Shown here one piece after another: positions 36,001 through 39,000 of a stretch of 39,059 nucleotides of DNA. Positions within the stretch are counted from its first letter, which is position 1; each line of letters begins with the position of its first letter. Source of the stretch: a plasmid; sequence record NZ_CP048903.1; one strand, written 5' to 3'. Position numbers: made by a program.

Positions 36001-39000
36001 CATCCAAACCCTTTGCGGCGGCAATTCTGGCCACCTTATCCTGAAAATGCCGCGTTCCGCCGATAGTCAGGACTTTTCCGTATCGCCCTATTGCGATTTC
36101 CAACGCCCTTGATACCGCCTTATCGTCAGGAATCGCGGCCAGTTTGAGCACACTGCCCGTATCACGGATGGTCATGCCGTCCTCGGCATAAATAACCGTC
36201 CCCTTTTTCGTTACCGTATCAACCTTGATCCCGGCAAATCCGCCACTTTCTTTGCCGACAAAGCGGTTGCCCTTGTAACCTGCATCCTTCCCCCTCCTTC
36301 TCAACGCATCTAACGCCCGGACATCGCCTTCGGCAGCACGGTGTTTCAGCCAATCTGCCCAAGCAAAACCCTTGTTCTGCTCAAAAAAAACCGCACGTCG
36401 GCGGGCATAATCGGTTCTTACCGATCTGATTTCATCCTTCATTTGCCTAAACAGCATCCGATACAGAATGCGCCTTGCAATACCACTGCTGCTATGCCTA
36501 ATCAGGCTGCGGCGAAAAGCGTATTTTTCTTTGATGCGGCCGATCTCCATATCCCGGTTTTGTGCCAAATGCAGGAAAAAATCCTGCCGCCTGCTTTTCT
36601 GAAGCTCTTTTTCCTCCTTGTATTGCCGGAACAGATCGTCCACGTTGGCTTTGCTCAACGGTTTCTCACGGTACGTTTTGGATGGTTTCGCCTTTACTCC
36701 TGTTTTCTGATCAAATGCACCAAGCCTTTTTTCCAACGCCGACTTGGAAAACTCCCTATCTACCGAACTTGCCTTGACATGATGCTCGCCGTCGCTGATA
36801 ACAAAACCGTTACCCCTCAGCTTGATTTCCAATCCGTGATCACTCAGTACATGGTACAGTTGCTCCCATGTCTTAGCCTCTTTAATCTGCTCACCGCACT
36901 CTCTCCTGATCCATCCTATCAGGCTCTCGATACCCGCCACTTCCTCCATATCGATTTTTTTATTGCCGCGCCCGCCACGCTGCACCCTCTGCAAACCGTA
37001 CTCTTCTTCAAACTTCCTGCACTCCCGCCCTAAAATTTTGAAGTCGTTATACGGCTCGTGGATGGTCTTTTTTTCTGGGTGCACTTTGTTAATCGCTACA
37101 TGAAAATGCAGATTGTCGGTATCTCTGTGAACAACAGAGATCCGCTGATGTTCGGCATACCCCAAAGCCTCAATCATGCTCTGCTCAATACGGCTCAACT
37201 GTTCGTCCGTCAAAAATTCCCCGCCCGCAAGGGATACCATCAGATGATAGGTTTTATCCGCCGCACTGCGCTTATTCTGATCCTGAACTGCCAAAGTCTC
37301 CTGAACCGCCCACCTCAAATCCGATGATTCATAGTTATGAATCTCCACCTTTCCCACTCGGTTTGCGACACCTTGAGAACCGGCCAGATAGGTAACTAAG
37401 CCTTCAAAACTGCTCAGGTTGGCTTTACGCATCGGAATTTTTTTTGCAATCATGTTCAGCCTATTTTTTTAGCCGCTAAAATTCTGCGGCTCCGCACAAT
37501 CTCCAACATACTTTCCTGCATTTCTCCAATTTGCTCCAACACTCCGAAGATCGCCTTAGCCAACTGATCGTGATCGAACATCATCAGCCGCTCGTCGTTG
37601 GCCAACCACATCTTGATCAAGCCGCCCAATCGGCCTTGGTCGGCATTGATTTTGGCCAAGGCTTTAACCGCTTCACCGTCATAAACGGATGCAGGCTTGT
37701 ATCCCAAGCCAAGTAATTTCAAATAAGCCGATTGGCTCAATCCGACAGATTTAGCCAAACTCTCTATGGTTTTCCATTCTTCTTCCGAAACGTAAACGCT
37801 GATGTATTTTGGCCGTTTTCGTGCGCCTGCCATTCTTAGAGTCCTTAATTTGTGCCGCAAGGCACACAACAGCCAACGGTAGTTGGCCAGCCTCGCAGAG
37901 CAAGATAATCCGTTGAGCCTACCGGCGAATAAGGATTGTGATGTACATGTACATCACATATCTTGCCCCAATTCTGGGGTTCAATACGCCAAGGATTATA
38001 CGCCAAATAATTCAATATATCGAACATATTTTGATGACAAACCGCCTAAAAATGCTTTATCACAAACAAAAAATGATTTACTATATCGAATTATTGTTTT
38101 TAAAACGATTTTGCTTGGCAGTTTTGGCAAGGCTTTGTCAAAAAATTGGCAAAGCCCTATCGAAATGATCCAAATGGGAAAAATAGAAAAACTGGTTTTG
38201 GCCGAACTTGCCGCCATGCAGAAAAAAGGCTCCTCAGCCGGAAACAAGGCAAGGTTCTTGGCCATGCAGGAAGACATTAAGATACTGCTGGTGGACAGGA
38301 ATATCCCCGTTATCAGTGTTTGGCGGATTTTGTCGGAAAAAAAATATGTCCCATATTCCTATGAGACATTTAACCGCTACTGCAAGATGTATATCTTCAA
38401 ATCCGACACTACGGCCGCTGACCAAACAGACACCGCCCAGTCCACACAGGAAAAACCTGATTCCATCCGCACGGACAAAGAACCGCCGTCTCCCGCCTCC
38501 GAACCCATTATCGCGGGAGGCAACACCAAAAGCTCTTCAGGCTTTACTTTCAACAACAACCCAGACGGAAAGGACTTATTTTAAATGGCCATTATCCATA
38601 TCAGCCTCCAAGCAAAAGGGGGCGTCGGTAAAAGTTTCTTGGCTTTGATGCTGTCTATGTTTTACCGCCATATCGAAAGACCGGTAAAAATTTTCGATAC
38701 CGATCCGGCCAACGCAACCCTGTTCGGTTTTCCCGCACTGGAGGCGGAAAAATTCGAGATCATGAAAAAGGATGATATTGACAAACGGTTGTTTGACCGG
38801 CTTTTCTCACAAATCCTGTCTGCAACCGATGATGTCATCATCGATGTTGGCGCCAATGCGTTTATTCCGCTTTGTTCGTATATCATTTCCAACAATCTGA
38901 TTACCATGCTGACGCAGGAAGGCCATCAGGTCATAATCCACACTTCCATTGTCGGCGGCCAGAACCTGAAGCATACGGTCAACGGATTTGATGCCCTATG

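What the first reader, a model, noticed from the sequence alone, without database searches (positions are those of the whole stretch)
37937..37967. oriT core: 22-bp perfect palindrome abutting an RP4-like nic motif
The palindrome tgtgatgtacatgtacatcaca (perfect, no spacer) ends 1 bp before tATCtTG|CC. This differs at one position from the MOBP nic consensus YATCCTG|Y and sits at the same side and distance from the inverted repeat as in RP4 oriT. It lies in the 330-bp gap between the divergent traJ and traK genes. Downstream repeats (tacgccaa x2, ttggca x3, in an AT-rich tract) are candidate TraK binding/bending sites.
Basis: partly seen in the sequence, partly recalled or inferred. Interest (0 to 1): 0.55.

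Follow-up and report, generated by a model that had tools for sequence, protein, structure and literature searches.

The report
Gonococcal plasmid transfer origin (known)

Summary
A perfect 22-bp palindrome (37937-37958) directly abuts TATCTTG|C (37959-37966) in the 331-bp traJ-traK gap. The window is the ~39-kb N. gonorrhoeae conjugative plasmid (pConj). The region is homologous block by block to the RP4 oriT and scores 67.5 bits (threshold 40) against Rfam RF01760 'traJ-II', which the literature equates with the RP4 oriT. In 122 distinct family members an inverted repeat ends 6-8 nt before the nick (7 in pConj, 8 in RP4). ATCTTG is a common variant (about a third), always matched by a compensating change in an upstream inverted copy of the nic core. 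TraI keeps Tyr22, Ser74 and the His motif. An exact 18-bp tandem duplication in four Taiwanese pConj plasmids, and a 15-bp one in an unrelated plasmid, both begin at the predicted nick, a likely relaxase footprint. Pachulec & van der Does (2010) already reported a putative nic and repeat here, so this is known but not experimentally mapped. Two corrections: the 'tacgccaa' repeats fit traJ promoter/start elements better than TraK sites, and pConj's repeat is the shortest in the sample.

The parts
37937..37958 (+). 22-bp perfect palindrome. It is the IncP-type nic-proximal inverted repeat and the predicted TraJ binding site. On the transferred strand it can form a 9-bp hairpin with a 4-nt loop.
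   Evidence: Searches give sequence and rarity. Searches show the same position in 122 family members. In one search, 14 of 15 repeat pairs show changes on both sides. In one search the half-site occurs nowhere else in the window.
37959..37966 (+). nic core TATCTTG|C. The predicted nick is between G37965 and C37966 on the plus strand, and TraI would attach to the 5' end at C37966.
   Evidence: Aligned with RP4 CTATCCTG|CCC. RP4 nick chemistry is taken from PMC7314908. The 18-bp duplication begins exactly at 37966.
37898..37907 (+). Upstream inverted copy of the nic core (GAGCAAGATA). It pairs with 37959-37968 to form stem A of the traJ-II structure. A37903 covaries with T37963.
   Evidence: I7; Rfam structure; pair 41-134: AU 15, GC 12; 118 of 122 complementary.
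37908..37936 (+). Stem B (37908-11 with 37933-36) enclosing GTTGA, a small hairpin GCC-TACC-GGC (37917-37926) and the conserved GAATAAGG block.
37872..37887 (+). Hairpin GCCAAC-GGTA-GTTGGC with a conserved GGTA loop, lying outside the Rfam model. The near-invariant block CAGCCTCGCAGA (37888-37899) follows it.
   Evidence: (helix 1: 4 of 6 pairs changed on both sides).
37966..37983 (+). First 18 nt of the transferred strand. It contains the small hairpin CCCC-AATTCT-GGGG (37966-37979) and is the unit duplicated in tandem in four Taiwanese pConj plasmids.
37984..38023 (-). Predicted traJ promoter region. It holds the ATACGCCAAGG box (37984-37994; predicted start near 37989, 24 nt from the nick), -10 TATAAT (38000-37995), the second ATACGCCAA (37998-38006) and -35 TCGATA (38023-38018).
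   Evidence: searches (10 of 12 consensus match; box at the same offset as in RP4), PMC7314908 (RP4 traJ start 24 nt from nic).
38014..38164 (+). A+T-rich tract with A/T runs, then three TTGGCA copies upstream of traK. This is the candidate TraK-binding/curved region and traK promoter, by analogy only.
   Evidence: RP4 analogy from PMC7314908.
37456..37833 (-). traJ, the oriT-binding accessory protein (NikA-like fold family).
   Evidence: (PF21983, 63 bits).
35060..37453 (-). traI, a MOBP relaxase with Tyr22, Ser74, and His116/His118 in HRDTDNLHFH.
   Evidence: PF03432, PF22863, PF22287; 41% identity to RP4 TraI over 384 aa with the motifs aligned.
38165..38584 (+). traK, the first gene of the leader operon.
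   Evidence: (DUF5338); the 420-bp traK is listed in PMC2848598.

Best explanation
Positions 37872-38000 are the nick region of the origin of transfer of the gonococcal conjugative plasmid, an IncP-1-like (MOBP) system.

By homology with RP4:
- TraJ binds the palindrome at 37937-37958.
- TraJ binding lets the relaxase TraI cut the plus strand between G37965 and C37966.
- TraI stays linked through Tyr22 to the 5' end at C37966.
- The plus strand is then transferred 5' to 3', so traK-traL-traM and the kfr/kor genes enter first and the relaxase operon enters last.
- The repeat and nic core arrive last and serve for the closing cut-and-join reaction.

The same DNA also carries the predicted traJ promoter, whose transcript would start about 24 nt on the leading side of the nick. 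TraJ bound at the repeat would therefore also repress its own operon.

Shown here: the anatomy, the homology, the covariation, the conserved catalytic residues and the duplication junctions at the nick. Inferred: the binding, the cleavage position and the regulation.
For: - The gene order traF-traG-traI-traJ / traK-traL-traM, with kfr, par and trfA nearby, matches the IncP Tra1 core.
- The region shares every block with a genuine RP4 record: the GGTA hairpin, CCTCGCAGAGCARGAT, GTTGAGC, GAATAAGG, the repeat, and YATCYTG|CCC.
- Rfam RF01760 scores 67.5 bits against a threshold of 40, E = 7e-11 for the whole window, and is the only hit. That family corresponds to the RP4 oriT (PMC6206304).
- The family structure passes both controls: 86% of cells are paired against 33-44% when partners are slid, and 26 pairs change on both sides.
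- In 122 distinct cores the repeat ends 6-8 nt before the nick, and ATCTTG accounts for 44 of them.
- TraI aligns with RP4 TraI at Tyr22, Ser74 and His116/118.
- Of only three exact tandem duplications of 14 bp or more within -100 to +200 of the nick in 126 cores, two start exactly at nick+1. L114 sits in a genuine traJ/traI/traK context.
- Repeat mismatches favour pairing on the plus strand: G-T 115 against A-C 39.
- RP4 biochemistry is summarised in PMC7314908. The same call for these plasmids is in PMC2848598.
Against: - No experimental nick mapping or oriT cloning for pConj turned up in the searched literature.
- The 8-mer alone is not above chance.
- The repeat is only 22 nt, against a family median of 41, and lacks the apical half present in RP4. 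TraJ contacts may therefore differ.
- The repeat sequence is not conserved with RP4, so TraJ binding is inferred from position and covariation only.
- The duplications could be replication slippage that coincides with the nick.
- The G-T excess could reflect C-to-T deamination of the transferred strand rather than selection, and it is not corrected for shared ancestry.
Confidence: 0.88

Rival explanations
1. The conserved structure works mainly as an RNA. It would be a cis-regulatory element in the 5' leader of the traJ mRNA (Rfam's own label, 'traJ-II, Cis-reg'), controlling stability or translation of the relaxase operon. On this reading the palindrome is an RNA hairpin rather than a DNA site.
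For: - The Rfam model is built on the minus (traJ-sense) strand.
- The predicted promoter would transcribe through the whole element, as in RP4, where the traJ start lies 24 nt beyond nic (PMC7314908).
- The minus-strand RNA folds into the same junction, z = -3.6.
- One invariant stem A position is A-C on the plus strand, which is G-U on the minus strand.
Against: - In RP4 the same DNA is the biochemically defined TraJ site and nick (PMC7314908, PMC6206304).
- Repeat mismatches favour plus-strand pairing 115 to 39.
- The plus-strand DNA fold has the stronger z-score, -5.5.
- The invariant A-C pair never varies, so it says nothing either way.
- An RNA role could exist alongside oriT but cannot replace it.
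Confidence: 0.2
2. The palindrome is only a TraJ operator, or a transcription attenuator, for the traJ operon, and the real nick lies elsewhere in the plasmid.
For: - In RP4, TraJ bound at the repeat represses traJp (PMC7314908).
- The consensus scan flags the palindrome plus the following T-containing stretch as terminator-like on the minus strand.
Against: - No other RF01760 hit exists in the window, and the half-site is unique.
- The nic core abuts the repeat at the family-typical spacing.
- The duplication junctions sit at this nick.
- The terminator-like tail is weak, and one such match is about what the shuffles give.
Confidence: 0.04
3. It is a chance palindrome, or a cluster of restriction-type sites (GTAC, CATG, TGTACA) with no role in transfer.
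For: The window contains a second 22-bp perfect palindrome at 2504-2525, inside korB. Such palindromes can therefore occur outside oriT.
Against: - The expected number in the gap is 7.5e-5.
- All 122 relatives have a repeat at the same place, with compensatory changes.
Confidence: 0.01

Closest known systems
oriT of IncP-1alpha plasmid RP4/RK2 (TraJ-TraI-TraH-TraK relaxosome)
   Same: - The gene context is the same, and all sequence blocks occur in the same order.
- The nic core lies on the same strand and the same side of the repeat.
- The ATAC(A/G)CCAAGG box sits at +19 to +29 in both.
- TraI is 41% identical, with aligned catalytic residues.

   Different: - The nic core is ATCTTG rather than ATCCTG, with the matching G-to-A change upstream.
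- The repeat is a loop-less perfect 22-mer rather than about 19-bp imperfect arms spanning about 41 nt.
- The spacing is 7 nt rather than 8.
- The repeat sequence itself is different.
- The traK side is much richer in A+T.
- RP4 is mapped experimentally and pConj is not.
Rfam RF01760 'traJ-II RNA' motif
   Same: The match covers the full length of the model above threshold, with stem A, the hairpin, stem B and the inner hairpin all present.
   Different: - pConj lacks the 20-nt apical part of the model's hairpin.
- Rfam labels the family a cis-regulatory RNA on the traJ-sense strand, whereas this evidence and PMC6206304 point to the DNA origin of transfer.
oriT regions of the Eikenella exigua plasmid (NZ_CP038019) and the Haemophilus parainfluenzae plasmid (NZ_CP063114)
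   Same: These are the closest non-gonococcal relatives. Both have the TATCTTG|CCC core, the GCAAGATA upstream copy, and an A+T-rich traK side.
   Different: The Eikenella repeat spans 28 nt with an 8-nt loop. The Haemophilus repeat is full length (about 40 nt). Neither repeat sequence matches pConj.
Putative pEP5289 oriT in Pachulec & van der Does 2010 (PMC2848598, Fig. 4)
   Same: It is the same plasmid family and 99.7% identical in this region. The paper makes the same call: a putative nic plus an inverted repeat between traJ and traK, with a repeat not conserved with other IncP-1 subgroups.
   Different: The paper gives no experimental mapping. The figure itself is not held, so I could not compare its exact nick position.

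Membership tests
IncP-type (MOBP) oriT nick region | nic core matching YATCCTG|Y on the transferred strand (consensus recalled from the MOBP literature, not retrieved here) | tested here: met
   TATCTTG|C matches 7 of 8 positions. The C-to-T variant occurs in 44 of 122 genuine family cores.
IncP-type (MOBP) oriT nick region | Inverted repeat immediately 5' of nic, about 8 nt from the nick (the TraJ site in RP4) | tested here: met
   The palindrome ends 7 nt before the nick. Across the family the spacing is 8 nt in 96 cores, 7 in 10 and 6 in 16. RP4 spacing is from PMC7314908.
IncP-type (MOBP) oriT nick region | Located between the divergent relaxase operon (traJ-traI) and the leader operon (traK-traL-traM) | tested here: met
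IncP-type (MOBP) oriT nick region | Cognate MOBP relaxase with the catalytic Tyr and the His-rich motif III, plus a TraJ/NikA-type accessory protein | tested here: met
   Tyr22, Ser74 and H109-x-D-x-D-N-x-H116-x-H118 align with RP4 TraI. Pfam Relaxase and NikA-like domains are present. MOB-suite types the plasmid as MOBP.
IncP-type (MOBP) oriT nick region | Sequence-level homology to an experimentally defined IncP oriT | tested here: met
   Alignment with the RP4 record CP152305 and 26 others; 28 invariant columns.
IncP-type (MOBP) oriT nick region | Site- and strand-specific nicking by TraI+TraJ, and mobilisation of the cloned region | not testable with these tools
   Indirect support only: tandem duplications whose junction is the predicted nick.
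IncP-type (MOBP) oriT nick region | TraK-bound, intrinsically curved region of about 200 bp on the leading side | tested here: inconclusive
   An A+T-rich tract (73-83%) with A/T runs is present. No curvature or binding test was possible, and there is no sequence conservation with RP4 there.
Rfam RF01760 traJ-II | Score at or above the curated gathering threshold, with the consensus structure | tested here: met
   67.5 bits against 40, model positions 1-104.
Rfam RF01760 traJ-II | Functions as an RNA (cis-regulatory) | tested here: inconclusive
   Transcription through the element is predicted. However, the mismatch asymmetry favours the opposite (DNA transferred) strand.

The most novel reading that the evidence does not exclude
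Tandem duplications that begin exactly at nick+1 may be fossils of relaxase errors. The two cases are an 18-bp one in four Taiwanese pConj plasmids and a 15-bp one in an unrelated Methylococcales plasmid. The likely error is rejoining of the TraI-linked 5' end to a 3' end that had already been extended by a few nucleotides, or a late second cut. If so, nick sites could be read at single-nucleotide resolution from sequence variation alone. The Taiwanese variant would then be a natural oriT mutant that moves the traJ promoter 18 bp away from its TraJ operator. The pConj 22-mer would also be the smallest natural TraJ site in the sampled family.
Probability: 0.45. Interest if true: 0.45.

Novelty: already known. 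Interest (0 to 1): 0.2.

Why it matters
pConj spreads tetracycline resistance and mobilises the beta-lactamase plasmid in gonococci, and reviews describe its transfer rates as among the highest known (PMC13255544). A precise oriT and nick position helps with mobilisation vectors, transfer-blocking strategies and typing. The call itself adds nothing beyond the 2010 paper and Rfam. The side observations may be of modest use to people who study relaxases and annotate oriTs. These are the nick-anchored duplications, the compact repeat, the strict covariation between the nic core and its upstream inverted copy, and the evidence that the repeat is tuned to the transferred strand rather than to the traJ mRNA.

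Tried and rejected
- The search for related loci with an 8-sequence TraJ alignment failed because no stretch was conserved enough. I used DNA patterns instead.
- The 16-mer scan of genome contigs returned mostly chance hits. Only 21 of 120 carried the other oriT blocks. The two-block pattern used on metagenomes was clean.
- A text search for 'YATCCTG' found only unrelated papers, so that consensus rests on my own knowledge.
- I briefly took the multi-stem covarying structure to be new. I dropped that idea after the Rfam hit and PMC6206304.
- MAFFT placed pConj's shortened left arm under the family's right arm. pConj therefore contributes little to the repeat pair counts, and I checked its own pairing separately.
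- My first covariation count used a wrong index; one search corrects it.
- I considered and rejected the terminator-like reading of the palindrome.
- No paper on nick-anchored duplications was found.

Full report

Yes. The plus strand reads TGTGATGTACA|TGTACATCACA at 37937-37958, a perfect palindrome with no spacer.
- About 0.009 palindromes with arms of 11 or more are expected per window, and 7.5e-5 in the intergenic gap.
- Only 3 of 300 simulated windows reached arm 11.
- T37959 follows directly and begins TATCTTGC (37959-37966).
- The 8-mer alone is not informative: YATCYTGY occurs 16 times in the window against 8.1 expected.
- The gap between the traJ start (37833, minus strand) and the traK start (38165) is 331 bp.
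- The downstream repeats exist: ATACGCCAA twice, TTGGCA three times, and a tract of 73-83% A+T.

**2. Source and surroundings**

The intergenic region is 100% identical to NZ_MT296576. It is 99.7% identical to pEP5289 and other 42-kb N. gonorrhoeae conjugative plasmids. The first 25 kb of the window match those plasmids at 99.3% over 97%, with about 3 kb extra in the records. This fits the ~39-kb form without tetM.

The flanking genes are:
- traF, traG (coupling protein) and traI, with Relaxase, TraI_middle and TraI-like_C domains;
- traJ (NikA-like) on the minus strand;
- traK, traL and traM on the plus strand, followed by kfr, parB/parA and trfA.

TraI is 41% identical to RP4 TraI over 384 residues. 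Tyr22, Ser74 and HRDTDNLHFH (His116/His118) are aligned. An acidic ORF inside traI in another frame (35542-35940) is 58% identical over its last 64 residues to TraH of pMBUI1.

**3. Homology to defined IncP origins**

I extracted the traJ-traK gaps from a true RP4 record (CP152305), pIJB1, pMBUI1, pKS208, and plasmids of Sphingopyxis, Haemophilus parainfluenzae and Eikenella exigua. All share the same order of blocks:
- a hairpin with a GGTA loop;
- CCTCGCAGAGCARGAT;
- GTTGAGC, then a small hairpin, then GAATAAGG;
- a long inverted repeat;
- YATCYTG|CCC.

RP4 reads CTTCAC-CT-ATCCTG|CCC and pConj reads CATCAC-AT-ATCTTG|CCCC. The repeat is therefore on the same side. The spacing is 8 nt in RP4 and 7 nt in pConj, only because pConj forms one more terminal A-T pair.

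For RP4 the following are established (PMC7314908):
- TraJ binds the 19-bp repeat, which lies 8 bp from nic.
- TraI cuts and attaches through Tyr22.
- The traJ transcript starts 24 nt on the leading side of nic.
- TraK binds a curved region of about 200 bp.

**4. A known model covers it**

Rfam RF01760 ('traJ-II RNA') matches 37889-37968 on the minus strand. The score is 67.5 bits against a threshold of 40, and it is the only Rfam hit in the window.

The model's outer stem pairs the nic core with an upstream inverted copy (37898-37906). Its main hairpin is the palindrome, and pConj lacks the model's 20-nt apical part.

Weinberg et al. listed the motif as a candidate cis-regulatory RNA (PMC2864571). 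Li et al. 2018 state that the RK2/RP4 instance corresponds to the described oriT (PMC6206304). [quoted passage not shown] They noted that the repeat sequence is not conserved with other IncP-1 groups (PMC2848598). I found no experimental mapping for pConj.

**5. Wider comparison**

Pattern scans of genome and metagenome contigs, filtered for the other blocks, gave 122 distinct cores.

On a 28-sequence alignment the five-helix structure had:
- 86% of cells paired, against 33-44% when partners were slid;
- 26 pairs with changes on both sides;
- 14 of 15 repeat pairs with such changes.

Across the 122 cores:
- The repeat ends 8 nt before the nick in 96, 7 nt in 10 and 6 nt in 16.
- ATCTTG accounts for 44 cores.
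- The C/T position of the nic core is complementary to the G/A position of the upstream copy in 118. The counts are A/T 41, G/C 77, G/T 3 and A/C 1.
- The rarer GTC cores go with a C upstream in all 10 cases.
- pConj has the shortest repeat of all, 22 nt against a median of 41. Eikenella has 28.

The covariation between the two nic copies has two possible causes. It may reflect base pairing, or it may reflect recognition of both copies by the same relaxase. Sequence alone cannot separate these.

**6. Which strand?**

pConj folds into the same three-way junction as plus-strand DNA (-22.3 kcal/mol, z = -5.5) and as minus-strand RNA (z = -3.6).

I defined the pairing register from Watson-Crick pairs only and counted repeat mismatches. 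Those that still pair on the plus strand (G-T, 115) outnumber those that would pair on the minus strand (A-C, 39). By sequence the split is 64 against 13. This fits a hairpin that matters on the nicked, transferred strand.

Two caveats apply. It could equally come from C-to-T deamination of that strand while it is single-stranded. It is also not corrected for shared ancestry.

**7. Natural variants that mark the nick**

Four complete pConj plasmids from Taiwan carry an exact 18-bp tandem duplication of CCCCAATTCTGGGGTTCA (window 37966-37983). They are CP131633, CP131623, CP131617 and CP131627. The left boundary is the predicted nick and cannot be shifted in either direction.

A Methylococcales contig (L114) has a different repeat sequence and genuine traJ/traI/traK neighbours. 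It has a 15-bp tandem duplication that also starts at nick+1, with 1 nt of ambiguity.

In 126 cores scanned from -100 to +200, the only other exact duplication of 14 bp or more is an iteron-like 40-mer at +49. Two of three at one position out of about 300 is unlikely by chance, roughly 3e-5 by my arithmetic.

My inference is that a relaxase-linked 5' end was rejoined to a 3' end already extended by replacement synthesis, or that the second cut came late. Nick-ended rearrangements of this kind are known for rolling-circle initiators; that is from my own knowledge, not retrieved here. This is indirect support for a nick at G37965|C37966.

**8. The leading side**

Anchoring on the nick shows a small covarying hairpin just after it. 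Examples are pConj CCCC-AATTCT-GGGG, pMBUI1 GGCTC-TTC-GAGCC and pIJB1 CGCC-TTTC-GGCG.

The box ATAC(A/G)CCAAGG sits at +19 to +29 in both RP4 and pConj. In RP4 this is where the traJ transcript starts.

In pConj, a TATAAT (38000-37995, minus strand) with a TCGATA -35 gives a 10-of-12 promoter match. It predicts a start near 37989, 24 nt from the nick.

They therefore fit promoter or operator elements better than TraK bending sites. By analogy, the A+T-rich tract at 38014-38103 and the TTGGCA repeats are the better TraK/traK-promoter candidates. This is untested.

**9. Verdict**

- Mechanism: an RP4-type relaxosome nicks the plus strand at G37965|C37966, and the palindrome serves as the TraJ site and the terminal hairpin. 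My confidence is about 0.88.
- An RNA role for the same structure may coexist with oriT but cannot replace it.
- The feature is already known as a prediction (2010 paper, Rfam family), so interest is low.
- The nick-anchored duplications and the unusually compact repeat are the only points that go beyond the literature I could find.

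Noticed in passing
window 37966-37983; L129 (NZ_CP131633) 230-265; also CP131623, CP131617, CP131627: There is an exact 18-bp tandem duplication whose left boundary is the predicted nick. It occurs in 4 of 21 gonococcal plasmid records, all from Taiwan. It moves the predicted traJ promoter 18 bp away from the palindrome.
   Followed up: yes
L114 (Methylococcales MAG contig JAQTPT010000099), just after ACATCTTG: A 15-bp tandem duplication (CCCGGTTTCAAGTAC, two copies) also starts at nick+1. It lies in an unrelated IncP-like oriT with genuine traJ/traI/traK neighbours.
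   Followed up: yes
window 37883-38584 (+): RefSeq/PGAP records annotate a 233-aa 'TraK family protein' starting at TTG 37883, which reads through the palindrome and nic. The family match begins only at residue 113. Relatives are 134-141 aa, and the 2010 paper lists traK as 420 bp. The true start is probably ATG 38165.
   Followed up: partly
window 2504-2525: A second perfect 22-bp palindrome, ACAGCCTGATCGATCAGGCTGT, is as improbable as the oriT one. It lies inside the korB/parB gene (1927-2844, minus strand). It is not the known KorB operator sequence, and its function is unknown.
   Followed up: no
window 37872-37887: The hairpin GCCAAC-GGTA-GTTGGC has a conserved GGTA loop and a covarying stem across the family. 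It lies just outside the Rfam RF01760 model, next to the near-invariant CAGCCTCGCAGA block. No function is known to me.
   Followed up: partly
window 37966-37979: A small hairpin (CCCC-AATTCT-GGGG) sits immediately 3' of the nick. Its stem covaries in many relatives. It forms the first nucleotides of the transferred strand and lies near the 5' end of the predicted traJ mRNA.
   Followed up: partly
window 37900-37907 (minus strand reads TATCTTGC): The upstream inverted nic copy places a second nic-like core on the opposite strand. It too is preceded by a hairpin (stem B) at a similar distance. I cannot say whether it is ever cut or bound by TraI.
   Followed up: partly
window 35542-35940 (-): An acidic 132-aa ORF lies inside traI in another frame. 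Its last 64 residues are 58% identical to the annotated TraH of pMBUI1 and include a Cys-rich C-terminal block.
   Followed up: partly
window 38115-38165: Three TTGGCA copies and an imperfect inverted repeat (arms 38122-38141 and 38146-38165, containing GGCTTTG-N12-CAAAGCC) lie directly upstream of the traK start. This may be an operator or the traK promoter region.
   Followed up: no
L102 (Pacificibacter marinus contig NZ_JAHKPK010000023): An RP4-identical oriT is preceded by CTTGCATGCCTGCAG, which looks like polylinker sequence. This suggests a cloning or mobilisation vector fragment in that assembly.
   Followed up: no
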